From NCBI GenBank assembly GCA_017934955.1, contig JAGBIO010000024.1:14550-78549 (forward strand): a stretch of DNA of 64,000 nucleotides. The letters are read 5' to 3'. Each line of letters starts with the position of its first letter. Position 1 is the first letter of the stretch. This stretch comes from Clostridia bacterium. Lineage in GTDB: Bacteria > Bacillota > Clostridia > TANB77 > RGIG9151. A model generated the notes under the pieces. It was not told the origin of the DNA and did no database searches. It saw only the letters and a list, made by a program, of their open reading frames with translations. Positions 41,150-60,979 of the stretch are shown one piece after another. The translations under genes were made by a program, and so were the position numbers.

Positions 41150-42814
41150 ATGCCATACGACGGACTTGTCACAAGAAAAATCAAAGAAGAATTAGAAGAA
41201 AAATTAATATACGCAAAAGTAGATAAAATCATACAACCCACAAAAGACGAACTGATTCTCTCTTTTCGCGCACAAAAAGAAACCTTACGACTTCTTTTGT
41301 CCGCGAATGCTGAAACTGCCAGAACGCATTTAACAAAATATTCTTTATATAAAAATCCGGCAAAACCATTTAACTTCTGCATGATTCTACGCAAATACCT
41401 CTCCGGAGCAAAACTCTTACATATTTCTCAACCGAATAACGACAGAATCTTAGCCTTCTCTTTCGAAAACAGCAACGAATTGGGAGACAAAGAAAATCGA
41501 ACGCTTCTCATCGAAATGATGGGGAAATACAGTAACATTATTCTACTAAACGCCTCCGATACCATCATCGACTCCTTAAAACACGTTGACTTCGAAATCA
41601 GTCGCGTTCGCGAAGTCATGCCGGGAAGAAAATACACTCTCCCGCTAAACGCAGAAAAGAAAGACCCTTTTGCCGTTACGAATCAAGAATATACTTCTCT
41701 CTTGGCAAAACACCAAGAAAACTTTTTAGCAACCGCATTTATCGGAATTTGTACTCCTGCCGCGAAATACTTTACCGAAAGCACCGATTCCTCTTATTCC
41801 GCTTTTTCTCAATTTATTCATCAAAAAACACAAGCCATGGTATTCACCAAAAACGGACAACCGCATGACTTTTATTTTTGTGCTTGCCCTGTTTTAGGGA
41901 TTTCTGCTCAACCGACGACTACCCTATCGGAAGCCATCGATGAAGTGTATCGTCACAAGATTACGCAAAAACAATTGCTTTCTGCGAAAAACAGCCTCTC
42001 AGAAAATGTTTCACACTTGATTGCCAAGACAAAAAAGAAATTAGATATTATTGATTCTAAGTTAGAAACAACAAAAGACATGGAAGAGTTAAAAATAAAA
42101 GGCGAATTGCTCTCCGCCAATCTATATCAAATTAAACCTTATACTGCGGAAGTAAAAGTATGCGATTACTATCATGCAAACTCCGAATTAAATATTGCCT
42201 TAGACCCCAATTTATCGCCTTCCCAAAATGTTCAAAAAATATTTAAAAAGTACAACAAATTAAAAAATACCGTTACCGCTTGTTCGGCGCAAAAAGAAGA
42301 GTTAACCTCCGATCTTGCTTATTACGAATCCTTACTTTTTGAAATACAAAATCAAGAGTATATAGAAGACTTAGAGGAAATCAAAGAGGAATTATTAGCA
42401 CAAAAATTAATTCACTCTCAAAAAACCGAAAAGAAAACCACACAAAAAAACTACCTCACCTACACCTACGAAAATTTCGAAATTCTTGTCGGTAAAAATA
42501 ACCTGCAAAATGACCAATTAACCTTTAAAATTGCGCACAAAAACGACCTCTGGTTCCACGTCAAAAACGCCCCCGGATCCCACACCATACTACGTACAAA
42601 CGCTCAAGATGTTTCACGTGAAACGTTAGAATTCGCAGCCTCTCTCGCAGCCTCTCACTCCAAATTAAAAAACTCACCGAAAGTAGAAGTAGACTATACT
42701 GAAATAAAAAACGTCAAAAAAATTCCGGGTGCAAAACCCGGAATGGTAATATATGTAAATTATAAAACGATTTATATTGCACCTAATGACCACTCATCTT
42801 CTTTCCAAGGATAA
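41150..42814 (+). CDS. rqcH: RqcH (NFACT family; formerly fibronectin-binding protein A-like), ribosome-associated quality control
   Basis: 554 aa with an NFACT-N domain (MPYDGLVTRKIKEEL...KIIQPTKDELILSFR), a central coiled coil, and a C-terminal NFACT-R/DUF814 domain (DLWFHVKNAPGSHTILR). Confidence 0.8.
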   Translation: MPYDGLVTRKIKEELEEKLIYAKVDKIIQPTKDELILSFRAQKETLRLLLSANAETARTHLTKYSLYKNPAKPFNFCMILRKYLSGAKLLHISQPNNDRILAFSFENSNELGDKENRTLLIEMMGKYSNIILLNASDTIIDSLKHVDFEISRVREVMPGRKYTLPLNAEKKDPFAVTNQEYTSLLAKHQENFLATAFIGICTPAAKYFTESTDSSYSAFSQFIHQKTQAMVFTKNGQPHDFYFCACPVLGISAQPTTTLSEAIDEVYRHKITQKQLLSAKNSLSENVSHLIAKTKKKLDIIDSKLETTKDMEELKIKGELLSANLYQIKPYTAEVKVCDYYHANSELNIALDPNLSPSQNVQKIFKKYNKLKNTVTACSAQKEELTSDLAYYESLLFEIQNQEYIEDLEEIKEELLAQKLIHSQKTEKKTTQKNYLTYTYENFEILVGKNNLQNDQLTFKIAHKNDLWFHVKNAPGSHTILRTNAQDVSRETLEFAASLAASHSKLKNSPKVEVDYTEIKNVKKIPGAKPGMVIYVNYKTIYIAPNDHSSSFQG

Positions 42815-47927: not shown

Positions 47928-49064
47928 ATGCCATTCAATACTAAAAGCGAAATACCAAAAAAATTTTTTCAACAAATATTACTACTCATCACCTTCACTG
48001 CCATACTTGTATTCGCACTTTTTCACCTCGCCCCGATTTTCTCCGCCATTACAGCATTTTTTCAATTAATCAGTCCCGTTTTAATTGGCTTTGCCATTGC
48101 TTTTGTACTCAATTTGTTAGTAAAATTTTTTGAAAATAAAGTATTTGTTTCAAAGAAAACAAAAAAGACCTTTATCAAACGCCCGCTTTCTATCTTACTG
48201 GCGATTATGGTAATCTTAGTAATTATTACGATTTTAGTCTTTCTCCTCTACCCGCAAATTAAAAGTTCCGTACTTCTCTTCACAACAAATGCACCAAATT
48301 ACATTAATACCTTGTATAGTAAAATAAACGGATTTTTAGAAGGTTTTCCTACCGCTAAAACCATTTTCTCCGAAAATTGGGATAAATTCTTACTAAACTC
48401 TGCCACATTTTTAACAAACTTGATTTCCTCCTTATTCACCATGACCATCCATCTTACTTCCGGCATTATCACGGTCTTTATCAGTATCATTTTTTCTATT
48501 TATCTTTTAGCCGGAAAAGAAAAACTGATCGTGTCCTTAAAAAAATGTTTATTTGCATTCCTCTCTGAAGAAAAAGCAGAGAAGATAATTTATGTAGGGT
48601 CTCTAATCAACGATACCTTCTCAAAATTTGTATCGGGACAAATCATAGAAGCGGTTATTCTCGGATCGCTTTGTTTCATCGGAATGTTACTATTCCGCTT
48701 TGACTATGCAATATTAATCAGTACCATCATCGGATTAACAGCCTTAATTCCGATTTTCGGAGCTTTTATCGGTGCCGGAATCGGTGCCTTTATCCTGCTT
48801 CTGATCTCACCGTTATCCAGTCTCTGCTTTTTAATCTTCATCATCGTCCTGCAGCAAATTGAAGGAAATGTCATTTATCCGAAAGTAGTCGGAACCTCTA
48901 TCGGTCTATCCGGCTTCTGGGTACTGATTGCCATCACCGTTTTTGGTGGCTTGTACGGCATCCCCGGTATCCTACTTGGCATTCCGCTGTTTTCTGTTTT
49001 TTCCACATTATTCACAAGAGCTGTGGATAAAAAAATCCAATCAAAGAATATAAATATCCACTAA
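47928..49064 (+). CDS. AI-2E family transporter (UPF0118 / PerM-YtvI-like permease)
   Basis: 378 aa with 8 predicted TM helices and the conserved IEGNVIYPKVVG loop motif. Confidence 0.7.
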   Translation: MPFNTKSEIPKKFFQQILLLITFTAILVFALFHLAPIFSAITAFFQLISPVLIGFAIAFVLNLLVKFFENKVFVSKKTKKTFIKRPLSILLAIMVILVIITILVFLLYPQIKSSVLLFTTNAPNYINTLYSKINGFLEGFPTAKTIFSENWDKFLLNSATFLTNLISSLFTMTIHLTSGIITVFISIIFSIYLLAGKEKLIVSLKKCLFAFLSEEKAEKIIYVGSLINDTFSKFVSGQIIEAVILGSLCFIGMLLFRFDYAILISTIIGLTALIPIFGAFIGAGIGAFILLLISPLSSLCFLIFIIVLQQIEGNVIYPKVVGTSIGLSGFWVLIAITVFGGLYGIPGILLGIPLFSVFSTLFTRAVDKKIQSKNINIH

Positions 49065-49158
49065 CTATCAACATCTTAACAACATTTTATCCACAGTTTT
49101 TGTGTATAACTCACAAAAAACTGTGGATAACTTTAGTTTTACCCTAAATTTATCCACA
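49022..49158. promoter_or_regulatory. DnaA-box cluster with four perfect TTATCCACA 9-mers, ~10 kb from dnaA
   Basis: TGTGGATAA at 49022-49030 (inside the 3' end of the transporter gene), TTATCCACA at 49087-49095, TGTGGATAA at 49122-49130 and TTATCCACA at 49150-49158, plus ATATCCACT at 49053-49061. It lies between the convergent 3' ends of two genes. Confidence 0.75.
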
Positions 49159-49230
49159 AGCGATTTTCCCCAATATTCAAACTCCAAGGAAATTTCCACA
49201 GTTCGAAAATCCGTTCTGTTGCAACAATAT

Positions 49231-50316
49231 TCACACTTTTTCACTTAACAAAACCTTTACTTCCATCAATTCTTCTCCACGCTTTACTTGAAACGTTACA
49301 ATCTCTCCGATTTCTCTTGCAAACAGAAGTTCTCTTAATTTGCACAATGTATTAATTTCTTGCTCATTCATTGTCAATAAAATATCCCCGCTTTTTATGC
49401 CGCTTTTTTCCGCAGGACTGTTTTTATCCACAGAGTCCACATAAATTCCCTTAGCAACATAAATCTCCGACGCCATATTCGCCGTCATCTCTCTATCATA
49501 TCCTGCAATTCCGAAATAAGGTTCTTTAAAGCTTCCGTTTTCTATAATCTTCGCAATAATCGGTTTAATCTGATTGATTGGAATCGCAAATCCCATTCCC
49601 TCCGCCGATTCTACCTTAATTGTATTAATCCCTATCAATTCACCCTTTCCGTTAAATAACGGTCCTCCGCTATTTCCGGTATTAATACTCGCATCTGTTT
49701 GAATCAAATCCTCCATAAAGATACCATTCGAGGAAACGGTACGATTCAAACCACTAATCACACCGGCTGTCACCGTTCGCTGAAACTCAAAACCCAACGG
49801 ATTTCCAACTGCAATTGCCCGTTCTCCGACACGAACTGCGTCCGAATCCCCAAGCGTCATACTCGGAAGTCCCGCCACAGGAATTTTAATCACAGCCAAA
49901 TCCAACTCAGGACTTTCCCAAATCATTTTTCCGGTTACTACATCTCCGCCATACAGCGTCACATAAATCTCATCCGTCTCTCTTCCGATTACGTGATAAT
50001 TTGTCACAATGTATCCTCTCGAATTCAGGATACATCCGCTTCCTACGCTCCAAATATTATCCAAAACCGCCGCTAATTTACTCCCCGAATTTTGTTTCAC
50101 CGCAATCCCGACAACAGAAGCAGTAGAAATAACCGTATTTCCAGGATTCTCTCCTTCAACTTCAATCTGCGAAAGTTGCTTCGTCTCCCCCGACAACTGT
50201 GTCAAATCCGAATCCACCTTTGGCTGCACCGGTTTAATCCAACTATCCACACCAACCAAAATCAAAAACATCATAACAACCGTCGTAATTGCTGAAATCA
50301 AAACATTTTTCCCCAT
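49231..50316 (-). CDS. htrA: HtrA/DegP-family serine protease with a C-terminal PDZ domain, membrane-anchored
   Basis: N-terminal TM helix and catalytic triad motifs (TNYHVIG, DLAVIKI, GNSGGPLFN), with a PDZ-like C-terminus. The start is placed at the Met with the AAGGATGG RBS, because the longer ORF-track call runs into REP hairpins. Confidence 0.85.
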   Translation of the reverse strand: MGKNVLISAITTVVMMFLILVGVDSWIKPVQPKVDSDLTQLSGETKQLSQIEVEGENPGNTVISTASVVGIAVKQNSGSKLAAVLDNIWSVGSGCILNSRGYIVTNYHVIGRETDEIYVTLYGGDVVTGKMIWESPELDLAVIKIPVAGLPSMTLGDSDAVRVGERAIAVGNPLGFEFQRTVTAGVISGLNRTVSSNGIFMEDLIQTDASINTGNSGGPLFNGKGELIGINTIKVESAEGMGFAIPINQIKPIIAKIIENGSFKEPYFGIAGYDREMTANMASEIYVAKGIYVDSVDKNSPAEKSGIKSGDILLTMNEQEINTLCKLRELLFAREIGEIVTFQVKRGEELMEVKVLLSEKV

Positions 50317-51160: not shown

Positions 51161-52888
51161 CTATCGTTCCGTATAATGCGTATGCAACAAATGATGTGCC
51201 TTCTCACTACCCGGCTTTTCCAAATATTCTTCATAAACCTGTTTCACGTAAGGATTTTGATGCGATTTACGATGAGGAAGTCTCTTATCCTCATTATAAA
51301 GAGCCTTTCTTCTCTCTCCCCTAACATCAATTCCCGCTTTCTCTTTTACAATCTTTCTCGGCTGACCGCCACCCATAATACAACCACCCGGGCAAGCCAT
51401 CACCTCAATAAATTGATAATCAACCTTTCCGTCTCTCACAAGTTCCATCAACTTTCTCGCATTTCCGAGACCGCTTACAACCGCAATCTTCACTTTCTGT
51501 CCGGCAATGGAAAGTTCCGCCTCTTTAATCGTCTCATTTCCTCTAACTTCTTCATACTCAATCTTATCAATTGACTTATTCTCTAAAACTTCTGTAACGG
51601 TACGAATTGCCGCTTCCATAACACCTCCGGAAGTACCGAAAATCGTCGCCGCACCACTTGCTTCTCCAAAAGGTTCATCAAACATTTCGTCTTCCAAATT
51701 CTCAAACATGATACCCGACTGCTTAATCATCTTCGCAAGCTCAACCGTCGTAATAACCGCGTCTATATCCGGATACCCTGTTGCACTTAACTCCGGACGC
51801 TCGCACTCAAACTTCTTCGCCGTACAAGGCATCACTGCCACAACAAAAATCTTAGAAGGATCGATATTATTCTTCTTTGCGTAGTAGCTCTTAAGCAAAG
51901 CCCCATACATCGACATCGGAGATTTCGCCGAAGACAAATTCGGAATCAATTCCGGGAAATTATGCTCGGCAAACTTTACCCATCCCGGACTGCAAGAAGT
52001 AATCAAAGGTAAATTTTTACCGGATTTTAATCTCTCGATAAACTCCGTACCTTCCTCCATAATAGTAAAATCAGCCCCGGTATTCGTATCAAACACTTTA
52101 TCAAAGCCCATTCTTCTTAATGCTGCCACCATCTTTCCGGTAACTGCTTCTCCCATCGGTAATCCAAACTCTTCTCCCAAAGCCGCTCTTACGGCAGGAG
52201 CCGTCTGCACAACAACGTGCATTTCCTCGTTATTAATCGCATCCCAAACACGATCAATATTATACTTAATGGTAAGTGCTCCAACCGGACAAACCGCAAC
52301 ACACTGACCACAATTAATACAATTACTTTCTCCAAGCGATTTATTAAACGCCGGCGTAATCTTAGAATTCATTCCGCGATAAGCCACATCAATCGCACCA
52401 ACCGTCTGTACATTCTTACAAACCGCAACACATCTTCTGCAAAGAACACATTTTGAATTATCTCTTACAATCGAAGTAGACAAATCATCAATTTCATCCT
52501 CCGCCGTTCCTTCATATACCACATCGCCGACACCCATACGATCCGCCAAAGCTTGTAACTCACAATCGGTATTTCTCGAACAACTCAAACAATTCTTCTT
52601 ATGATTCGATAAAATCAACTCTAATGTCGAACGCCTTGCATCCATAATCTCCTTGGTATTGGTTCTTACCACAAGACCTTCCGAAACAGGATAAGAACAA
52701 GCCGCCTGAAGTCCACGCGCCCCTTTCACTTCAACCAAACAAATACGGCAAGCGCCAATCTTATTAATCTTCTTCAAATAACACAAAGTCGGTATATCAA
52801 TATTCGCTTGTTTCGCAGCTTCCAACACCGTTAAATTATCTTCCGCTTCTATATTTACACCATCAATCGTAATATTCACTTTTCCCAT
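51161..52888 (-). CDS. hydA: [FeFe]-hydrogenase catalytic subunit HydA (bifurcating type, with N-terminal 2Fe-2S and 4Fe-4S accessory clusters)
   Basis: 575 aa with H-cluster motifs L1 TSCSPGW, L2 MPCTAKKFE and L3 EVMACPGGCIMGGGQP. The N-terminus has a plant-type ferredoxin fold plus two 4Fe-4S CxxCxxCxxxCP motifs. Confidence 0.9.
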   Translation of the reverse strand: MGKVNITIDGVNIEAEDNLTVLEAAKQANIDIPTLCYLKKINKIGACRICLVEVKGARGLQAACSYPVSEGLVVRTNTKEIMDARRSTLELILSNHKKNCLSCSRNTDCELQALADRMGVGDVVYEGTAEDEIDDLSTSIVRDNSKCVLCRRCVAVCKNVQTVGAIDVAYRGMNSKITPAFNKSLGESNCINCGQCVAVCPVGALTIKYNIDRVWDAINNEEMHVVVQTAPAVRAALGEEFGLPMGEAVTGKMVAALRRMGFDKVFDTNTGADFTIMEEGTEFIERLKSGKNLPLITSCSPGWVKFAEHNFPELIPNLSSAKSPMSMYGALLKSYYAKKNNIDPSKIFVVAVMPCTAKKFECERPELSATGYPDIDAVITTVELAKMIKQSGIMFENLEDEMFDEPFGEASGAATIFGTSGGVMEAAIRTVTEVLENKSIDKIEYEEVRGNETIKEAELSIAGQKVKIAVVSGLGNARKLMELVRDGKVDYQFIEVMACPGGCIMGGGQPRKIVKEKAGIDVRGERRKALYNEDKRLPHRKSHQNPYVKQVYEEYLEKPGSEKAHHLLHTHYTER

Positions 52889-52902
52889 TCTTTTTCCCCC
52901 CT

Positions 52903-54780
52903 TTATTTCTTTTCTATCGCTTTAAACGGACACTTCTGCATACACAATCCGCACTTAATACACTTCTGAGGATCAATCTTAAACGGTGATTTTACTTCAC
53001 CCGAAATAGCAGAAACCGGACAATTTCTTGCACACATACTGCAACCCTTACATTTTTCTTCGTTAATTTTATACTGTACGAGATTCTTACAAGCACCGGC
53101 AGGACATCTCTTCTCCTTAATATGTGCCTCATATTCCTCTCTAAAGTACTTAATAGTGCTCAACACCGGATTTGGAGCAGTTTGACCCAATCCGCATAAC
53201 GCTGATTTCTTAATATTTTGCGCTAATTCCTCTAATTTTTCAATATCCCCTTCTTCACCCAATCCTTTTGTAATGCGATCTAAGATATCATACATCTTCT
53301 TCGTTCCGATTCGGCAAGGAGGGCATTTTCCGCAAGACTCACTAATGGTAAACTCCAGGAAGAATTTTGCGATATCAACCATACAGTTATCTTCATCCAT
53401 AACAATTAGTCCACCGGACCCCATCATAGAGCCGATTTGCATCAAAGAATCATAATCAATCGGCGTATCCAAGTGACTCGCCGGAATACATCCGCCGGAA
53501 GGTCCGCCTGTCTGAGCCGCCTTAAACGCTTTCCCGTTCGGAATTCCGCCACCGATGTCATATACGATTTCTCTTAACGTAATTCCCATCGGAACTTCCA
53601 CTAAACCGGTATTATTGATTTTTCCGCCAACCGCAAACACCTTTGTACCGGTACTCTTCTCCGTACCAATGGAAGAAAACCACTCTGCACCCTTCAAAAT
53701 AATTTCCGGAATATTTGCTAACGTTTCTACGTTATTCAAAATTGTCGGTTTTCCAAAAAGTCCCTTCACCGCAGGGAACGGCGGTCTTGTACGAGGTTCT
53801 CCTCTTTTTCCTTCAATCGAAGTCATTAAAGCGGTTTCCTCTCCACAAACAAACGCTCCCGCCCCTAAACGAATATCAATATTAAACTCAAAATCCGTAC
53901 CGAAAATATTACTTCCCAACACACCATATTCTTTTGCCTGTGCAATCGCAATTTTTAAACGGTTTACAGCAATCGGATATTCTGCTCTAACATAGATGTA
54001 TCCTTGATTTGAGCCAATCGCATATCCCGCAATTGCCATCGCTTCCAATACCGAATGCGGATCTCCTTCCAAGACACTACGATCCATAAACGCTCCCGGA
54101 TCGCCTTCGTCTGCATTACAGCAAACATATTTTTGATCCGCTTCCACATTTGCCGCAAAAGCCCACTTTCTTCCCGTCGGGAATCCGGCGCCTCCTCTTC
54201 CTCTAATACCGGACTTCAAAACGGTATCAATAACCTCACTTGGTGTCATCTCTAACAAAACTTTCTCTAAAGCTTTATAACCGTCAAACGCCAAATATTC
54301 ATCAATATTCTCCGGATTAATTCTTCCGCAATTGCGAAGTGCCAAACGATGTTGTTTCTTATAAAATCCAAGTTCATGTAACGTATGTGCCAAAGTTTCC
54401 GTCTCGATATCCTTCGCCAATAAACGTTCTACCACATTTCCCTTTTCAATATCCTCCGTTAAGATTTCCTCTACATCCTCCGGTTTCACCATTGTATAAA
54501 AGGTTTCTCTCGGATAAATAATCATAATCGGACCCTTCGCACAAAGACCGAAACAACCGGTTTTGATAACTTCCGCTTTATCCTCTAAATGTCTTTCACG
54601 AATTCCTTTTTCCAATTCTTCTACAATTTTCGGAGATTTCGAAGAAGTACATCCCGTACCGCCACAAACCAAAATACTCTTTTTCTCTGTTTTTGATTCC
54701 ACTCCCACACGCGTTTTTACTTTCTCATATACGCTTTTTCGAATTTCATCCAATTCTTTTATCGTTTTCAAATCTCTCAA
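52903..54780 (-). CDS. hydB: Hydrogenase NAD(P)H/FMN-binding subunit HydB (NuoF-like 51 kDa, with N-terminal thioredoxin-like 2Fe-2S and C-terminal 2x[4Fe-4S])
   Basis: 625 aa with a NuoF FMN/NADH core (GAGAFVCGEETAL, SCGKCPPCR) and C-terminal ferredoxin motifs (CKGCSMCARNCP, CIKCGLCMQKCP). Confidence 0.85.
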   Translation of the reverse strand: MRDLKTIKELDEIRKSVYEKVKTRVGVESKTEKKSILVCGGTGCTSSKSPKIVEELEKGIRERHLEDKAEVIKTGCFGLCAKGPIMIIYPRETFYTMVKPEDVEEILTEDIEKGNVVERLLAKDIETETLAHTLHELGFYKKQHRLALRNCGRINPENIDEYLAFDGYKALEKVLLEMTPSEVIDTVLKSGIRGRGGAGFPTGRKWAFAANVEADQKYVCCNADEGDPGAFMDRSVLEGDPHSVLEAMAIAGYAIGSNQGYIYVRAEYPIAVNRLKIAIAQAKEYGVLGSNIFGTDFEFNIDIRLGAGAFVCGEETALMTSIEGKRGEPRTRPPFPAVKGLFGKPTILNNVETLANIPEIILKGAEWFSSIGTEKSTGTKVFAVGGKINNTGLVEVPMGITLREIVYDIGGGIPNGKAFKAAQTGGPSGGCIPASHLDTPIDYDSLMQIGSMMGSGGLIVMDEDNCMVDIAKFFLEFTISESCGKCPPCRIGTKKMYDILDRITKGLGEEGDIEKLEELAQNIKKSALCGLGQTAPNPVLSTIKYFREEYEAHIKEKRCPAGACKNLVQYKINEEKCKGCSMCARNCPVSAISGEVKSPFKIDPQKCIKCGLCMQKCPFKAIEKK

Positions 54781-54796
54781 CTCCTTCTTTTCTCGA

Positions 54797-55288
54797 TTAA
54801 TTGTATTTCGCCAAAATGCCTTCTACCATATCCGGCGTCATCTTTCCGTAAACTTCATCATTAATCACCATAACCGGTGCAAGTCCGCAAGCACCGACAC
54901 ATCTGGTATCCTGAATGGAAAACTTACCATCCTCCGTCGTTTGTCCTGCTTTAATGCCAAGCAACTGTTCCAATTTTTCCAAAACCTTATCTGCCCCTTT
55001 TACATAGCAAGCGGTACCTAAACAAACCTGAATATTGTACTTTCCCTTCGGTTCCAATGTAAATCTTGAATAAAATGTCGCAACCCCAAAAACTTCCGCT
55101 AAGCTGCAACCAAGACCTGTTGCAATTTTCTGCTGAACTTGTTCCGGCAAATACCCGAATAGCTCTTGTGCTTCATGAAGAACCGGAATCAAAGCACCTT
55201 CCATCGTTTTGTGTTCTTCGATAATCTGATCCAATCTTTTCAACTTTTCCGAGTTTAACTCACAACAACAACACTTTTTCTCTGCCAT
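54797..55288 (-). CDS. hydC: Hydrogenase [2Fe-2S] subunit HydC (NuoE-like 24 kDa)
   Basis: 163 aa with the thioredoxin-like 2Fe-2S motifs CLGTACYVKGADKV and CVGACGLAPVMVIN. It is the first gene of the hydCBA operon. Confidence 0.85.
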   Translation of the reverse strand: MAEKKCCCCELNSEKLKRLDQIIEEHKTMEGALIPVLHEAQELFGYLPEQVQQKIATGLGCSLAEVFGVATFYSRFTLEPKGKYNIQVCLGTACYVKGADKVLEKLEQLLGIKAGQTTEDGKFSIQDTRCVGACGLAPVMVINDEVYGKMTPDMVEGILAKYN

Positions 55289-56402: not shown

Positions 56403-57461
56403 TTACACTTCCTTCTCTATATAGAAACTTTTTACCTCTTTCCCGATCAATTCATCCGTACAGGTAATCAACACCTGACAGTTTTTTAGCTTTTCATATA
56501 AAAATTCTCTTCTTTCTCGATCTAACTCTGACATGACATCATCCAATAATAAAACCGGCATTTCTCCCTTTTCTTGAAAAACCAAATCTTTTTCTGCCAA
56601 TTTTAATGCCAACACAGCCGTCCGAATCTGCCCCTGCGAACCAAAGTTTCCTAACGGCATCTCATTAATGCTCATCAAATAGTCATCCCGATGAATCCCC
56701 ACCGATGTAAAACCACGAAAAATATCCTTTTCCCTTTTCGATTTTATTAACGCCAAACATTCCTCTTCGCGATCCGGAATCTGCGTCTTATAGACAAGCT
56801 GTACATCCTCTTTCTTTTCCGACATTTGTAAATGATAATCTTGAAACAGCGGAGAAATTTTTTGAATATTCTCCTCACGAATTTTTTTAATTCTTATATT
56901 CGCCATCGCCAACTTCTCATCCCAAATATCCGCTTCTAAAGACGGAAGGTGTTCCCTTTTTGTTTTTAATAAATTATTTTTCTGTTCCAAAATTTTATAA
57001 TATTCCTGTAAAACGTAGATGTATCCCGGGTTTAACTGACTAATTAAAAGATCAAAATTCTTTCTTCTCTCCCCCGGATCCCCTTTCACAAAATTCAAAG
57101 TTTCCGGAGAAAACAAAACAATCAATATATTTCCAAACAAAGCACTTAGCTTCTGTTGCTTAATATCGTTAATTTTTACTTGTTTCTTTCCATTCTCGGA
57201 AAGAACGATATTCACTCGTTTTTTGCGATCTTTCAGCGAAGCTTCTACCGTAACCGAAGCAAACTCCTGCCCCTTTTTTACTAATTCCGAGTCTTTTCTG
57301 GTACGAAAAGAACGGCCTATTGCAGATAAATAGACCGCTTCTAATATATTTGTCTTTCCTTGTGCATTATTTCCCCAGAAAACATTCGTTTTAGGAGACA
57401 ATTCCATTCTTTTTTCCGAATAACTTCTGTAATTTTTTAATTCAATTGTATCAATAATCAC
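56403..57461 (-). CDS. recF: DNA replication and repair protein RecF
   Basis: 352 aa with Walker A GNNAQGKTN (MIIDTIELKNYRSY...) and a C-terminal ABC-type signature/Walker B region. It is positioned after dnaN. Confidence 0.9.
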   Translation of the reverse strand: MIIDTIELKNYRSYSEKRMELSPKTNVFWGNNAQGKTNILEAVYLSAIGRSFRTRKDSELVKKGQEFASVTVEASLKDRKKRVNIVLSENGKKQVKINDIKQQKLSALFGNILIVLFSPETLNFVKGDPGERRKNFDLLISQLNPGYIYVLQEYYKILEQKNNLLKTKREHLPSLEADIWDEKLAMANIRIKKIREENIQKISPLFQDYHLQMSEKKEDVQLVYKTQIPDREEECLALIKSKREKDIFRGFTSVGIHRDDYLMSINEMPLGNFGSQGQIRTAVLALKLAEKDLVFQEKGEMPVLLLDDVMSELDRERREFLYEKLKNCQVLITCTDELIGKEVKSFYIEKEV

Positions 57462-57514: not shown

Positions 57515-58615
57515 CTAAATTCTTACCGGCAAAATCATATAAGTATATTCTTCCCCTTCCAACGGACGCATAATACAAGGAGAAATGGAAGAACCGAAAT
57601 CCAAGCTAATCGTTTTATCATCAATTGCCTTTACCGCTTCAATTAAATACTTCGGATTAAAGCCGATTTCCAAATTCTTTCCGATGCTTTCTACTACAAC
57701 TTCCTCTCGAACATCTCCTGATTGAACCGCACATTGAATTACCATTAAAGAATCCGCAATGGTAATTTTAATCGGGAATTGCTTATCATCTCGTGACATA
57801 ACAGCCGCTCTTTCCAAAGAACTTAACAATACATTACGATCTACCGTTACACGTAATTCCTTCTCCTTCGGAATCGCTTGTCTGTAATCCAAAAATTCAC
57901 CTTCCAAGACACGTGTTACTGCCTTACAATTTGACATTTCAAACAAACCTTGATTCTTTTCCACACCGATCGTAATAGGCTCATCCGAATCTTGTAGAAT
58001 CTTGGAAATCTCCGTTAAGGTTCTTCCCGGAATAATTGCCTTAAAATCAGCTGTACTTTCTTCTTCCAAGTGTTTGGTTTGTAATGCAAGACGAAATCCG
58101 TCCAACGCAACCATATTTAAAACATTTCCGTTTTTCTCAATTAAACACCCAGTAAAAACCGGTCTGGTTTCATCAATTCCAACCGCAAAAATCGTTTTAC
58201 GAATCATATCTTTTAAAATATTTTGACTGATTTTTAACGATTGTTCCGCATTAATTTCCGGTAAAACAGGAAAATCTCCGCTATCTACCGTAACCACCTT
58301 AAATAATGAACCTTCACACTCTATAATCAGTAAATTTTGCTCATTCGTTGAAATCTCAATACTGCTATCCGGCAATTTTCGAATAATCTCAGAAAACATC
58401 TTGGCATCCACTGTAGCTTCTCCTACTTCACTGATTTCCGCATCTAAATAATACTCAATTCCCAAATCCAAATCCGTTGCGGTTATAATCACCATACTTT
58501 CTTTTGCTTCTAAATGAAAGCACTCCAACATCGGCATAGTAGTTTTTCCTGCTACTGCCTTTTGTGCTGCATTAATACCAACCAATAGTTTCTCTTTTTC
58601 CACTGAAAACTTCAT
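57515..58615 (-). CDS. dnaN: DNA polymerase III beta sliding clamp
   Basis: 366 aa with the three-domain clamp fold (MKFSVEKEKLLVGINAAQKAV...). It lies immediately downstream of dnaA. Confidence 0.9.
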   Translation of the reverse strand: MKFSVEKEKLLVGINAAQKAVAGKTTMPMLECFHLEAKESMVIITATDLDLGIEYYLDAEISEVGEATVDAKMFSEIIRKLPDSSIEISTNEQNLLIIECEGSLFKVVTVDSGDFPVLPEINAEQSLKISQNILKDMIRKTIFAVGIDETRPVFTGCLIEKNGNVLNMVALDGFRLALQTKHLEEESTADFKAIIPGRTLTEISKILQDSDEPITIGVEKNQGLFEMSNCKAVTRVLEGEFLDYRQAIPKEKELRVTVDRNVLLSSLERAAVMSRDDKQFPIKITIADSLMVIQCAVQSGDVREEVVVESIGKNLEIGFNPKYLIEAVKAIDDKTISLDFGSSISPCIMRPLEGEEYTYMILPVRI

Positions 58616-58789: not shown

Positions 58790-59100
58790 ATTGAAAAAAT
58801 CTTCTTTTTTTATTTTAAATAAATATTATTAAGTATTAATAGTATTAGTAATGTGAATTATGTGGATAACTGCAATTTTCCAACCTATCAGCAAAATTTG
58901 AACGTGGAAAAAATGAGAATAACTTTTCAAAATTTATCCACAAAGAATTTTAACATTGTGAAAAACTTTTTATTAACAAGTTTTCAACTCCCCATTCACA
59001 CCCAAATGTGGATAACCTGAAAATCAAATTATTCGCAGTTTACAGATTGCAGGAACCGCATAAAATCACGTTTTTTGCTATTGTGGAAACTGTGGATAAA
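58790..59100. other. oriC (dnaA-dnaN intergenic part): AT-rich DNA-unwinding element plus at least 4 DnaA boxes
   Basis: An AT-rich ~60-bp tract at 58795-58855 (TTTTTTTATTTTAAATAAATATTATTAAGTATTAATAGTATTAGTAATG). DnaA boxes TGTGGATAA at 58862, TTATCCACA at 58935, TGTGGATAA at 59007, TGTGGAAAC and TGTGGATAA at 59082-59099. Confidence 0.8.
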
Positions 59101-59107
59101 AATCCTC

Positions 59108-60442
59108 TTAATACAATAAGTTCTTTTTTATTTCATCAATGGTATTTTTTAATTCTTTTTTCTCGTTAATATCCTTTGAAATCTTATTGCAAGCGTGGAT
59201 TACCGTTGTATGATCTCTTTTGCCGAATTCAAATCCGATTTTCGGTAAAGATAAGTTTGCCACTTCTCGGCAAAGATACATGGCAATTTGTCTTGGATAG
59301 GCAATATCCGCGTTTCTCTTTACTCCTTTTAAATCTTCCACTTTGATATTAAAGTATTTTGCAACGACATCTTGAATCAAATCAATCGTAATGTTCTTAG
59401 TTTTTATATTTGTAATATCTTTTAATGCTTGCATCGCAATCTCTAACGTAACCGGTTCATTATTTAAATGTGCCAACGCTAAAATTTTATTTAACGCACC
59501 TTCCAATTCACGAATATTGGTATCGATTCTCTCTGCGATAAATGCGTTAATTTCATCCGGCACTTCAATACGATCCAACTGTGCTTTCTTTCTTAAAATT
59601 GCAATTCGAGTTTCGTAATCCGGCGTTTGAACGTCAGCTGTTAAGCCCCATTCAAAACGAGAACGTAAACGATCTTCCAACGGTTCAATATCCTTTGGCG
59701 GACGATCGCTGGAGATAATAATCTGTTTATTGGCTTCATAAAGAGCATTAAAGGTGTGGAAAAATTCTTCCTGTGTTCCCTCTTTTCCTGCAATAAATTG
59801 AATATCATCCACCAATAGTACATCTACATTACGATACCGATTTCGAAACGCGTTATTTCCTTCCGTCGCTTGTTCCTTAATGGCGTTGATAAAATCATTC
59901 GTAAATTTTTCAGATGTGATATAAAGAATCTTTTGACTTGGGTTTTGTTGTAAAATGTAGTGTCCGATTGCGTGCATCAAATGGGTTTTGCCAAGTCCCA
60001 CACCGCCATATAAGAACAGCGGGTTGTACGCTTTTGCAGGTGCTTCCGCTACCGCTAAAGAAGCTGCATGTGCAAAGCGGTTGTTATTACCTACCACAAA
60101 ATTTTCAAATATGTAACGCGGGTTTAATCCGGTAGAACTTTGGTCGGCCGGTTTCACACCCGGCATTTTTGTTTCAACTTCTTTTTTTGCTTCATCCGGA
60201 ATGAGATATTTTATTTCATAATCCTGATTGGTAACAAATTTAACGGTATTTTTCAATAAGTCATGAAATCTTGACTGAATGTTTGTCCTATGAAAATCAG
60301 ACGGAACTTGAATAAAAAATGAATTATTTTCCACATAAAGCGGTTTCAAATCCGCAATCCAAGTATTAAAGCTGATTGCCGTTACTTCTCCTTTTAAACA
60401 GTCTAATATTTTTTCCCAATCGGATTGTAAAATTTGTGACAT
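59108..60442 (-). CDS. dnaA: Chromosomal replication initiator protein DnaA
   Basis: 444 aa with AAA+ Walker A GGVGLGKTHL and a C-terminal DnaA-box-binding HTH. It is flanked by DnaA-box clusters. Confidence 0.95.
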   Translation of the reverse strand: MSQILQSDWEKILDCLKGEVTAISFNTWIADLKPLYVENNSFFIQVPSDFHRTNIQSRFHDLLKNTVKFVTNQDYEIKYLIPDEAKKEVETKMPGVKPADQSSTGLNPRYIFENFVVGNNNRFAHAASLAVAEAPAKAYNPLFLYGGVGLGKTHLMHAIGHYILQQNPSQKILYITSEKFTNDFINAIKEQATEGNNAFRNRYRNVDVLLVDDIQFIAGKEGTQEEFFHTFNALYEANKQIIISSDRPPKDIEPLEDRLRSRFEWGLTADVQTPDYETRIAILRKKAQLDRIEVPDEINAFIAERIDTNIRELEGALNKILALAHLNNEPVTLEIAMQALKDITNIKTKNITIDLIQDVVAKYFNIKVEDLKGVKRNADIAYPRQIAMYLCREVANLSLPKIGFEFGKRDHTTVIHACNKISKDINEKKELKNTIDEIKKNLLY

Positions 60443-60544
60443 TTTAATCCCCTTCCAAAAAAAAGTTTAAATATTAAAAATTTTTACAATAAAAAAACTT
60501 CAAAGCCTTATTATGAATAAATTGCATCGATATTGGAAAAACTA

Positions 60545-60750
60545 TTAAGTTATCCACAATTTTATCCACAAGTGTTGATAACGCATAAACAAAAGCTTTG
60601 AAATTTTATCTTTCGTGAAATATAGTATTAGACGTTGTTAATTAAATGTTGATAAAATCAATTAAATACTAAGCAAATACAATATATCAGAAAATTTACG
60701 GGTTTTCAATATAAATGTGGATAAAAATTTAAATATCCACAGAACTTTTG
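60545..60750. promoter_or_regulatory. oriC / dnaA promoter region: upstream DnaA-box cluster
   Basis: TTATCCACA at 60553 and 60566, TGTTGATAA at 60579, TGTGGATAA at 60716 and ATATCCACA at 60737. Confidence 0.8.
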
Positions 60751-60892
60751 TTCGAACACTATTGACGACTAAACAATTATGATATAAAATCCGATATAGC
60801 GGAAGCCGAATAATATTTGAATAATAATTATGATGTAAAAAATTATGTTATATAAGATTATTATTACTATTTTGGACTTTGTCGAAGGTTAA

Positions 60893-60922
60893 TTGTAGGG
60901 GGCGGCGTCCTCGACGCCCCGA
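60893..60922. repeat. REP-like hairpin, family C variant (GTAGGGGGCGGCGTCCTCGACGCCCC)
   Basis: Compared with GGGACG...CGTCCC elsewhere, the outer stem carries compensatory changes (GGGGCG...CGCCCC). Confidence 0.8.
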
Positions 60923-60979
60923 AATTGAGCCATAATCTAATTCGTAAATAAATACAAATACAGAAAGGAAACAAAGAAG

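What the first reader, a model, noticed from the sequence alone, without database searches (positions are those of the whole stretch)
49022..49158. Isolated high-density DnaA-box cluster ~10 kb from dnaA, at the convergent 3' ends of two genes
Four perfect TTATCCACA 9-mers and one single-mismatch box lie within 140 bp. A perfect 9-mer is expected roughly once per 130 kb per strand, so this is far from chance. It is not part of the oriC flanking dnaA, which lies at 58.8-60.8 kb. In Bacillus subtilis, non-origin DnaA-box clusters titrate DnaA and tune initiation timing, and one of them lies near an htrA-like gene close to the origin. This looks like the equivalent element, or a second origin-proximal DnaA-binding module such as an oriC2-like site.
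Basis: partly seen in the sequence, partly recalled or inferred. Interest (0 to 1): 0.6.

Follow-up and report, generated by a model that had tools for sequence, protein, structure and literature searches.

The report
Conserved DnaA-box cluster near the origin
A 200-bp stretch 10 kb from the replication origin of an uncultured Clostridia bacterium carries about eleven binding sites for the initiator DnaA, kept intact in related species; it is most likely a non-origin DnaA "sink" that tunes replication timing, a kind of element already known from Bacillus subtilis and E. coli.

Summary
Four perfect TTATCCACA boxes lie at 49022, 49087, 49122 and 49150. With weaker boxes the cluster spans 48999-49200 and holds about 11 boxes. 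Outside oriC and this cluster, 61 kb of the window has no perfect box.

It is not an origin. The GC skew flips at about 60.5 kb, and the only DnaA-trio plus AT-rich unwinding element lies in the dnaA-dnaN spacer (about 58.8 kb).

The cluster is under selection. Four related lineages (HtrA 81-87% identical, four-fold sites near saturation at 36-57% identity) keep the core at 89-98% identity. Substitutions fall in spacers (45/108 columns) rather than boxes (4/99), and spacer lengths never change. The cluster stays attached to the htrA 3' end although the gene on its other side differs: AI-2E inserted, DUF234 direct, or DUF234 inverted.

More distant relatives with the same dnaA...htrA-DUF234 synteny lack it. 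It is therefore a clade-specific, analogous element, not an orthologue of a B. subtilis cluster.

Its layout has two parts: one perfect box followed by three weak boxes at exact 2-bp spacing, and a "box-N5-inverted box-N2-box" unit laid out like the E. coli DARS core.

Best reading: an origin-proximal DnaA-binding regulatory cluster of the DBC/datA type. It is a new member of a known kind, of moderate interest.

The parts
48999..49200 (.). Whole DnaA-box cluster: about 11 boxes in 202 bp, directly downstream of htrA
48999..49007 (+). Box i, TTTTCCACA (1 mismatch). Lies inside the AI-2E ORF tail here but is non-coding in relative L084
49008..49016 (+). Box h, TTATTCACA (1 mismatch). Abuts box i and forms a box-N5-inverted-box pair with g
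49022..49030 (-). Box g, perfect TTATCCACA. Conserved in window, L211 and L084; lost in L083 by rearrangement
49054..49095 (+). Direct array of four same-orientation 9-mers, each separated by exactly 2 bp (11-bp period). The 9-mers are f ATATCCACT (49054-62), e3 CTATCAACA (49065-73), e2 TTAACAACA (49076-84) and e, perfect TTATCCACA (49087-95). It is the only such array in the window and is nearly invariant in 4 lineages. It also contains an IHF-core-like match at 49066-49078.
49101..49109 (-). Box d, TTATACACA (1 mismatch; TTATTCACA in two relatives). It faces box e across a 5-bp spacer. The d-e-e2 unit has the same layout as E. coli DARS core boxes I-II-III
49122..49130 (-). Box c, perfect TTATCCACA, invariant in 4 lineages
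49087..49130 (.). Imperfect 18-bp palindrome (boxes e and c plus T/A runs). As RNA it folds at about -22 kcal/mol on either strand, so it could act as a bidirectional terminator. The two arm changes seen in relatives are uncompensated
49150..49158 (+). Box b, perfect TTATCCACA, invariant in all 5 lineages
49192..49200 (+). Box a, ATTTCCACA (2 mismatches here; TTTTCCACA in three relatives)
49424..49432 (+). Outlying perfect box inside the htrA coding region. It sits at the same position in L084 and is a 1-mismatch variant in L083, which has another perfect in-gene box nearer its stop codon
47928..49064 (+). AI-2E family transporter gene. It is inserted between the cluster and the DUF234 promoter in this lineage and in L211. 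Its last 21 codons are cluster DNA
49231..50316 (-). HtrA-like S1C serine protease (trypsin_2 + PDZ). The cluster is always 75-85 bp past its stop codon
58795..58869 (-). Context: the true unwinding module of oriC. It comprises tandem boxes (58852-58869), a DnaA-trio-like run TTACTAATACTATTAATA (58834-58851) and an AT-rich DUE, all in the dnaA-dnaN spacer
   Evidence: PMC7561715
60550..60741 (.). Context: oriC1 box cluster upstream of dnaA. The GC skew changes sign here

Best explanation
The region is a non-origin DnaA-box cluster, a DBC in B. subtilis terms and functionally of the datA/DBC class. It arose in the htrA-DUF234 spacer of the ancestor of a small clade of uncultured Clostridia.

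Proposed mechanism:
- DnaA, encoded 10 kb away, binds the four perfect boxes (b, c, e, g) with high affinity.
- From anchor e, DnaA extends cooperatively over three weak boxes spaced exactly 2 bp apart on one helical face. From anchor g it extends over h and i. The 200-bp element would then hold roughly ten DnaA protomers.
- The cluster lies 9.7 kb from the unwinding element, so it is copied within seconds of initiation.
- Copying doubles this local sink, lowers the DnaA available to oriC, and so disfavours premature re-initiation.

Shown: the sites, their arrangement, their non-origin nature, purifying selection on boxes and spacing, and independence from the neighbouring genes.

Inferred: DnaA occupancy, cooperative filling, and the effect on initiation timing.
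For: - Box density is far beyond chance and is unique outside oriC within -60 to +12 kb of the origin.
- No comparable cluster exists in 1.36 Mb around other htrA genes.
- It is not an origin. The GC skew minimum is at about 60.5 kb with no inflection at 49 kb. The only long DnaA-trio-like run lies at 58834-58851 next to tandem boxes and an AT-rich tract, as in C. difficile oriC2 (PMC7561715).
- The core is conserved at 89-98% identity among four lineages. Their htrA four-fold sites are only 36-57% identical, and the adjacent non-coding DNA is 49-78% identical.
- Variable columns are 2/63 in boxes against 14/48 in spacers (p=1.7e-4). Over the extended region they are 4/99 against 45/108 (p=2.5e-11).
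- Spacer lengths of 19, 12, 5, 2, 2 and 2 bp are invariant.
- The cluster persists through three different distal gene arrangements, and boxes g-i are kept whether coding or non-coding.
- The array of one perfect plus three weak boxes at 2-bp spacing is unique in the window, with a chance estimate of about 1e-8 to 1e-7. It matches the rule for cooperative DnaA loading at E. coli oriC (PMC4451416).
- Precedent: deleting the six B. subtilis DBCs causes early initiation, and rescue depends on origin proximity and dosage (PMC3245932). One B. subtilis DBC lies downstream of both gcp and ydiF (PMC4447404). The same paper states that DBCs near oriC are common in Firmicutes and Actinobacteria.
Against: - There is no binding or physiological data for this organism.
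- The cluster is absent from relatives with DnaA 82-84% identical and the same synteny, so it is not essential to the replication cycle of the wider group.
- In B. subtilis, single DBC deletions have little effect, and reviews question how large the role of DBCs is (PMC5295017).
- The weak boxes e2, e3 and f were recognised only after seeing the alignment.
- The invariant 49060-49086 stretch could instead be a site for another protein, since it contains an IHF-core-like match.
- Only 4-5 lineages are sampled, all from metagenomes.
Confidence: 0.6

Rival explanations
1. It is a transcription element. The 18-bp palindrome formed by boxes c and e acts as a bidirectional terminator for htrA and the convergent gene. 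DnaA bound to the cluster may also act as a transcription factor or roadblock that controls read-through from htrA into DUF234, which was the ancestral downstream gene, or controls the DUF234 promoter. This is not exclusive of the sink role.
For: - The hairpin folds at -21 to -22 kcal/mol (z about -4.3 to -5.7) on both strands and in three lineages.
- It is the only strong hairpin between the two stop codons, and no canonical terminator was found there.
- On the + strand it is followed by the U-rich tail CUUUAGUUUUA.
- In L084 the cluster sits about 110 bp upstream of the conserved DUF234 promoter.
- Several B. subtilis DBCs do regulate neighbouring genes (PMC3245932).
Against: - Most conserved boxes (a, b, f, g, h, i) lie outside the hairpin.
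- The two substitutions in hairpin arms (L084 G>A, L083 T>C) are uncompensated.
- No U-tract follows the hairpin on the htrA strand.
- No promoter-like hexamer pair lies inside the cluster.
- The cluster stays conserved when DUF234 is moved 1.2 kb away by the AI-2E insertion, and when DUF234 is inverted.
Confidence: 0.2
2. It is a DARS-like DnaA-reactivating (nucleotide-exchange) element, or another element that changes the DnaA nucleotide state, rather than a passive sink.
For: - Boxes d-e-e2 read TTATACACA-N5-TGTGGATAA-N2-TGTTGTTAA.
- E. coli DARS1 reads TTATCCACT-N5-TGTGGATAA-N3-TGTGTATTA, and DARS2 reads TTATTCACC-N5-TGTGGATAG-N3-TGTGAAGAA.
- All three share the same orientation, the 5-bp gap and a weak third box. 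The middle box is a perfect consensus here and in DARS1, and has one mismatch in DARS2. These are the features described for the DARS core (PMC6868365).
- A second box-N5-inverted-box unit is formed by g and h.
Against: - The box-N5-inverted-box layout is not DARS-specific. It was the commonest spacing (54/121) among metagenomic hits to a three-box pattern, about a third of them from loci that also encode DnaA.
- E. coli DnaA Gln208, required for DARS activity, corresponds to Asn in this DnaA.
- No DARS has been described in Firmicutes, where control is thought to act on DnaA oligomerisation rather than nucleotide state (PMC5295017, PMC4447404).
- The box II-III gap is 2 bp, not 3 bp.
Confidence: 0.08
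3. It is a third, auxiliary module of the replication origin that loops to oriC1/oriC2, or a latent second origin.
For: - Box density equals that of the oriC modules.
- Bipartite origins loop between box clusters (PMC7561715, PMC3479198).
Against: - There is no DnaA-trio run or AT-rich DUE, and no GC-skew change at 49 kb.
- Relatives replicate without it.
- It is separated from oriC by 9.7 kb that includes recF and a hydrogenase operon.
Confidence: 0.05
4. It is an incidental, non-functional remnant, for example a copied oriC fragment or mobile-element debris.
For: - It is restricted to one small clade.
- It lies at a rearrangement-prone junction.
Against: - Purifying selection is box-specific and spacer lengths are fixed, although neutral sites are near saturation.
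- There is no extended similarity to the organism's own oriC and no other copy.
- Lineages have gained extra boxes independently.
Confidence: 0.03

Closest known systems
[quoted passage not shown]
   Same: - It is a dense cluster of consensus TTATCCACA boxes in a short spacer outside oriC, in a Firmicute with a bipartite dnaA-flanking origin.
- It is origin-proximal.
- One B. subtilis DBC (gcp-ydiF) likewise lies downstream of both flanking genes (PMC3245932, PMC4447404).
   Different: - It is not orthologous to any of the six. The flanking genes differ, and the jag-trmE spacer of this organism has no boxes.
- It arose recently, within a clade whose sister lineages lack it.
- It is much closer to oriC (about 10 kb).
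- Binding and phenotype are untested.
Escherichia coli datA
   Same: It is a non-coding DnaA-box cluster near oriC. Early duplication of datA is thought to repress re-initiation, and datA combines high- and low-affinity boxes (PMC5742627).
   Different: - The essential datA boxes share one orientation and need an IHF site between boxes 2 and 3 to stimulate DnaA-ATP hydrolysis.
- Here the orientations are mixed.
- Only a weak IHF-core match overlaps two weak boxes, and it is unknown whether the organism has IHF.
Escherichia coli DARS1/DARS2 core
   Same: Both have the layout box I -> N5 <- box II, then a short gap, then a weak box III in the same direction as box II. Box II is a perfect consensus in the cluster and in DARS1, and has one mismatch in DARS2 (PMC6868365).
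   Different: - The gap between boxes II and III is 2 bp here and 3 bp in DARS.
- The array continues for two more weak boxes.
- The Gln208 equivalent is Asn.
- The layout is common in oriC regions generally.
- Function is untested.
Low-affinity DnaA site arrays of E. coli oriC (R5M-tau2-I1-I2; C3-C2-I3-C1)
   Same: Same-direction 9-mers are separated by exactly 2 bp and nucleated from an adjacent high-affinity box (PMC4451416). The array here is e, e2, e3, f.
   Different: The array is outside the origin and has no adjacent DUE. A preference for ATP-DnaA is unknown.
Streptomyces coelicolor oriC-proximal DnaA-box cluster
   Same: It is an origin-proximal non-oriC cluster that negatively regulates replication in a Gram-positive (as cited in PMC3245932 and PMC5742627).
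   Different: The phylum and box consensus context differ. No sequence comparison was made here.

Membership tests
Non-oriC DnaA-box cluster (DBC, B. subtilis sense) | Several consensus or near-consensus DnaA boxes clustered within a few hundred bp | tested here: met
   There are 4 perfect, 3 one-mismatch and 4 two-mismatch boxes in 202 bp.
Non-oriC DnaA-box cluster (DBC, B. subtilis sense) | Located outside the replication origin (no unwinding module) | tested here: met
   No DnaA-trio run or DUE is present. The skew minimum is at 60.5 kb, and the true DUE and trio lie at 58.8 kb.
Non-oriC DnaA-box cluster (DBC, B. subtilis sense) | Stable DnaA occupancy in vivo (ChIP) | not testable with these tools
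   The organism is uncultured and no ChIP data exist.
Non-oriC DnaA-box cluster (DBC, B. subtilis sense) | Removal advances replication initiation, and the effect depends on origin proximity or dosage | not testable with these tools
   Only the position (9.7 kb from the DUE) could be measured.
Non-oriC DnaA-box cluster (DBC, B. subtilis sense) | Orthology with one of the six B. subtilis DBC loci | tested here: not met
   The flanking genes are htrA, AI-2E and DUF234. The jag-trmE spacer has no boxes. The cluster is absent in sister lineages.
datA (DDAH element) | Essential boxes in one orientation with an IHF-binding site between them | tested here: inconclusive
   A same-orientation array exists (49054-49095). 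One WATCAANNNNTTR match at 49066-49078 overlaps the weak boxes. Whether the organism has IHF is unknown.
datA (DDAH element) | [quoted passage not shown] | not testable with these tools
   This requires a biochemical assay.
DARS (DnaA-reactivating sequence) | Core of three boxes: I and II oppositely oriented with a 5-bp gap, and III in the same direction as II | tested here: met
   The d-e-e2 unit was compared with DARS1 and DARS2 sequences read from MG1655. The II-III gap is 2 bp here and 3 bp in DARS.
DARS (DnaA-reactivating sequence) | DnaA residue Gln208 (E. coli numbering) mediates the head-to-head contact | tested here: inconclusive
   The aligned residue is Asn. Phe239, Lys243 and Leu290 are conserved.
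DARS (DnaA-reactivating sequence) | Promotes ADP release from ADP-DnaA | not testable with these tools
   This requires a biochemical assay.
Chromosomal origin module (oriC2-like / basal unwinding system) | Tandem boxes followed by DnaA-trios and an AT-rich DUE, with a GC-skew switch | tested here: not met
   Runs of at least 4 NTA triplets occur only at 12.2, 25.7, 58.8 and 60.9 kb. The skew is uniformly negative across 44-58 kb.
Intrinsic terminator | GC-containing hairpin followed by a U-tract | tested here: inconclusive
   A hairpin of -22 kcal/mol is present. The tail is U-rich only on the + strand. The consensus scan did not call it.

The most novel reading that the evidence does not exclude
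The cluster may not be a passive sink. It could be a recently evolved element that changes the activity state of DnaA, making it a Gram-positive counterpart of E. coli DARS or datA. It would be built from a head-to-head box pair with a 5-bp gap, plus a 2-bp-spaced weak-box array that assembles an ATP-dependent DnaA filament. Sister lineages with identical synteny lack it, so the clade would offer a natural with/without comparison showing how such regulators are born.
Probability: 0.1. Interest if true: 0.7.

Novelty: new member of a known kind. Interest (0 to 1): 0.36.

Why it matters
Non-origin DnaA-box clusters are one of the few known cis-acting controls of replication timing in bacteria that lack SeqA and Hda. 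They have been tested only in B. subtilis, Streptomyces and E. coli.

This example extends the class to an uncultured Clostridia lineage. It shows clear box-level purifying selection, and its origin can be dated. It is present in one clade and absent in syntenic sister lineages, so it documents how such elements arise and then persist through local gene rearrangements.

Its internal layout combines a strong anchor with a 2-bp-spaced weak array and a DARS-like head-to-head unit. This gives concrete, testable predictions about how DnaA assembles on regulatory DNA outside origins.

Tried and rejected
It gave no close relatives and was used only as a background control.
Of the hit loci, about 45 of 120 also encode a DnaA homologue, so many hits are probably oriC regions of unrelated bacteria. 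It found no new htrA-linked relatives.
3. Rfam returned only sub-threshold miRNA-family hits caused by the palindrome. No RNA family matches.
4. The promoter and terminator consensus scan found nothing inside the cluster.
5. The idea that the cluster was copied from the organism's own oriC was rejected. blastn found no similarity beyond the boxes.
6. The second-origin idea was rejected on trio, DUE and skew evidence.
7. The mobile-element (MITE) idea was rejected. There is no second copy in the window or in any fetched locus. The abundant GGACAGCAT..ATGCTGTCC palindromes are a different family and are absent from the cluster.
8. A general link between htrA and DnaA-box clusters was rejected.
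9. The 58-aa ORF called over the cluster in L082 is not supported, because relatives have indels there.
Full report
**Observation**

Perfect TTATCCACA 9-mers lie at 49022(-), 49087(+), 49122(-) and 49150(+). A one-mismatch box, TTATACACA, lies at 49101(-). The 64-kb window holds 12 perfect boxes against 0.6 expected, and none of 100 shuffles reaches 12. Seven are in oriC, four are in this cluster, and one is inside htrA at 49424. With oriC and the cluster masked, the remaining 61 kb has no perfect box on either strand. A further 10 kb on the other side of the origin also has none. In 1.36 Mb around 80 other htrA homologues there are 21 perfect boxes and no cluster with at least 3 perfect boxes, or at least 5 boxes with one mismatch or fewer, per 200 bp. 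It is understated, because the cluster really spans 48999-49200.

**Context**

Pfam assigns the following genes:
- 47928-49064(+): AI-2E transporter.
- 49231-50316(-): S1C/HtrA-like protease (trypsin_2 + PDZ).
- 51161-55288(-): a three-gene [FeFe]-hydrogenase operon.
- 56403-57461(-): recF.
- 57515-58615(-): dnaN.
- 59108-60442(-): dnaA.
- 60980-63235(+): a PcrA/UvrD helicase.

GC skew is about -0.3 to -0.4 up to 58 kb and changes sign near 60.5 kb. There is no inflection at 49 kb.

The dnaA-dnaN spacer contains four perfect boxes. The last of these forms a tandem pair (TTATCCACA TAATTCACA) that is followed directly by TTACTAATACTATTAATA and an AT-rich tract. That stretch is the longest run of NTA triplets in the window. 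It resembles the C. difficile DnaA-trio 5'-CACCTACTACTATTACTACTATGA-3', which lies upstream of the experimentally mapped DUE in oriC2 (PMC7561715).

The organism, an uncultured Clostridia MAG, therefore has an ordinary bipartite Firmicute origin. The cluster is a third, separate DnaA-binding region 9.7 kb from the unwinding site.

**Anatomy**

Read on the + strand, the cluster is:

i TTTTCCACA (48999), h TTATTCACA (49008), N5, g inverted perfect (49022), then 23 bp, then f ATATCCACT (49054), N2, e3 CTATCAACA (49065), N2, e2 TTAACAACA (49076), N2, e perfect (49087), N5, d inverted TTATACACA (49101), N12, c inverted perfect (49122), N19, b perfect (49150), N33, a ATTTCCACA (49192).

Two motifs stand out.

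1. Boxes f-e3-e2-e form four same-direction 9-mers with exactly 2 bp between neighbours.
   - This is the only such array in the window, oriC included.
   - The chance that three 9-mers with at most two mismatches follow a perfect box at that spacing is about 1e-8, or about 2e-7 after a generous correction for alternative arrangements.
   - The same rule holds for the low-affinity arrays of E. coli oriC: the sites face one direction, are separated by exactly two base pairs, and are filled cooperatively from an adjacent high-affinity site (PMC4451416).

2. Read on the other strand, d-e-e2 is TTATACACA-N5-TGTGGATAA-N2-TGTTGTTAA.
   - I read the E. coli DARS cores from MG1655. DARS1 is TTATCCACT-N5-TGTGGATAA-N3-TGTGTATTA and DARS2 is TTATTCACC-N5-TGTGGATAG-N3-TGTGAAGAA.
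   - All three share the layout described for the DARS core: boxes I and II are opposed with a 5-bp space, and box III follows in the same direction as box II. Box II is a full consensus in DARS1 and in the cluster (PMC6868365).
   - Boxes g-h-i repeat the box-N5-inverted-box theme.

Boxes c and e, together with flanking T/A runs, form an 18-bp imperfect palindrome. As RNA it folds at about -22 kcal/mol on either strand.

**Relatives**

Contigs that encode HtrA homologues were fetched.

- Four lineages besides the window's own species carry the cluster directly after the htrA stop codon. They are L084 (HtrA 87% identical), L211 (85%), L212 (84%, contig ends inside the cluster) and L083 (81%).
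- The gene on the far side differs among them.
  - L084 has DUF234 co-directional with htrA. This is the ancestral order, as in the outgroups.
  - The window and L211 have an AI-2E gene inserted between the cluster and the conserved DUF234 promoter.
  - L083 has DUF234 inverted, with boxes g-i lost.
- In the window, homology with L084 runs through box i and stops there. The last 21 codons of the AI-2E ORF are therefore cluster DNA.
- Three more distant lineages keep the full dnaA-dnaN-recF-hydABC-htrA-DUF234 synteny. They are L085/86, L087/88 and L089/90 (HtrA 57-59% identical; DnaA 82-84% where the locus includes dnaA, in L087, L089 and L090).
- These lineages have htrA-DUF234 spacers of 83, 95 and 390 bp with no boxes.
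- The cluster was therefore born in the htrA-DUF234 spacer of the ancestor of one small clade.

**Selection**

- Between the cluster-bearing lineages, htrA four-fold degenerate sites are 36-57% identical, which is near saturation.
- The 73 non-coding columns between the stop codon and box b are 49-78% identical. The 111-bp core from b to f is 89-98% identical.
- Within the core, 2 of 63 box columns vary against 14 of 48 spacer columns (Fisher p=1.7e-4).
- Over 100-306 alignment columns in the three lineages that have all boxes, 4 of 99 box columns vary against 45 of 108 spacer columns (p=2.5e-11).
- The two box changes swap one tolerated variant for another (TTATACACA/TTATTCACA; TGTTGATAG/TGTTGATAA).
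- The spacer lengths of 19, 12, 5, 2, 2 and 2 bp are invariant.
- The two substitutions in the palindrome arms are not compensated. Selection therefore acts on the 9-mers and their phasing, not primarily on a hairpin.
- Lineages also carry extra perfect boxes at different places in the htrA 3' coding region. This suggests box turnover under selection for box number.
- Caveat: boxes e2, e3 and f were defined after seeing the alignment. The lineages are few and all come from metagenomes.

**Interpretation**

The sequence evidence strongly supports a functional multi-site DnaA-binding element that is not an origin. The closest known class is the non-oriC DnaA-box cluster.

- B. subtilis has six such clusters. 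Removing all six advances initiation, and a single cluster rescues best when placed near oriC, an effect attributed to dosage (PMC3245932).
- One B. subtilis cluster lies downstream of both of its flanking genes (PMC4447404).
- The authors of PMC3245932 note that oriC-proximal clusters are common in Firmicutes and Actinobacteria.
- E. coli datA is the Gram-negative analogue. Its early duplication is considered important (PMC5742627).

I therefore commit to an origin-proximal DnaA sink or regulator. High-affinity boxes anchor DnaA, and weak arrays are filled cooperatively. The element is duplicated seconds after initiation, which transiently lowers the DnaA available to oriC. Occupancy, cooperativity and the effect on timing are inferred, not shown.

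**Rivals**

- Transcription role. A terminator, or DnaA-dependent control of htrA read-through or of DUF234, is plausible as an additional function. It cannot explain conservation of the boxes outside the hairpin. It also cannot explain why the cluster persists after DUF234 was displaced or inverted.
- DARS-like nucleotide-exchange role. This is suggested by the layout, but the layout is not specific. In a metagenome scan for a three-box pattern, the 5-bp inverted spacing was the commonest (54/121). About a third of the hit loci also encode DnaA. In addition, E. coli Gln208 aligns with Asn in this DnaA.
- Second-origin or oriC-module role. This fails on trio, DUE and skew evidence.
- Neutral relic. 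This fails on the selection tests, and the cluster shows no similarity to the organism's own oriC beyond the boxes.

**Comparison and novelty**

Functionally the element belongs with the DBC/datA class. It is not orthologous to any B. subtilis DBC, and the jag-trmE spacer here has no boxes. The link to htrA is a lineage accident, not a rule.

It is a new member of a known kind. Two features go a little beyond the ordinary: a datable, recent origin with syntenic with/without sister lineages, and an internal architecture that combines an oriC-type 2-bp array with a DARS-type head-to-head unit.

Noticed in passing
window ~1056, 2444, 2524, 2600, 4132/4172, 8347/8386, 12358/12397, 17372-17585, 32958/32997, 36069, 38217/38283, 46192, 58689/58728; also L216 16570-16640: A dispersed palindromic repeat family, GGACAGCATnnATGCTGTCC, has 22 units in 64 kb against 0.04 expected. 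The units usually occur in pairs about 40 bp apart. The two copies read in full (dnaA-dnaN spacer and upstream of rpmH) are bracketed by TGTAGGG...CCCTACA. One pair sits in the dnaA-dnaN spacer between the DUE and the dnaN start, and another lies upstream of rpmH. The family is REP/MITE-like and was not characterised further.
   Followed up: partly
window 58795-58869 (- strand): This is the true unwinding module of oriC. Tandem boxes TTATCCACA+TAATTCACA are followed by the DnaA-trio-like run TTACTAATACTATTAATA and an AT-rich tract in the dnaA-dnaN spacer. It matches the B. subtilis/C. difficile oriC2 design.
   Followed up: yes
window 42610-42625: A parS-like palindrome, TGTTTCACGTGAAACG, has one mismatch to TGTTNCACGTGAAACA (0.06 expected). 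It lies about 16 kb from oriC.
   Followed up: no
window 60443-63235 and L216 12257-22256: dnaA is not preceded by rpmH. A divergent PcrA/UvrD helicase, an Impact_N protein, a Spo0A-like regulator, PBP5 and comEA (about 6 kb in all) separate dnaA from rpmH-rnpA-yidD-yidC-jag-trmE-gidA. Downstream, recF is followed by three small ORFs and a hydrogenase operon instead of gyrB/gyrA.
   Followed up: partly
window 48999-49064: The last 21 codons of the AI-2E transporter ORF are encoded by DnaA-box cluster DNA. Homology to the AI-2E-less relative L084 runs through them, so the transporter's C-terminal tail was created by insertion next to the cluster.
   Followed up: yes
L091-L210 (metagenome hits): Among 121 matches to TTATCCACA-N8-16-TTATNCACA-N3-7-TGTGGATAA, the spacings (11,5) and (12,5/6) dominate. 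About 45 of the 120 hit loci also encode a DnaA homologue, so box-N5-inverted-box may be a widespread oriC module.
   Followed up: partly
window 58861-59099 vs L087 1610-1849 and L089 1667-1906: The cluster-bearing clade also has more perfect boxes in oriC2 (3-4) than the sister lineages without the cluster (0-2). This hints at co-evolution between box number or affinity and DnaA supply.
   Followed up: no
window 62726-62823 (+): There is a sub-threshold Rfam match (49 bits; gathering score 65.2; E=1e-5) to n00280, a C. difficile sRNA annotated inside a helicase gene. Here it lies inside the pcrA/uvrD gene.
   Followed up: no
window 60900-60930: A GC-rich hairpin (GGGGCGTCGAGGACGCCGCCCC) lies in the dnaA-pcrA spacer. 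A similar unit lies upstream of rpmH in L216. It may belong to a second short repeat family.
   Followed up: no
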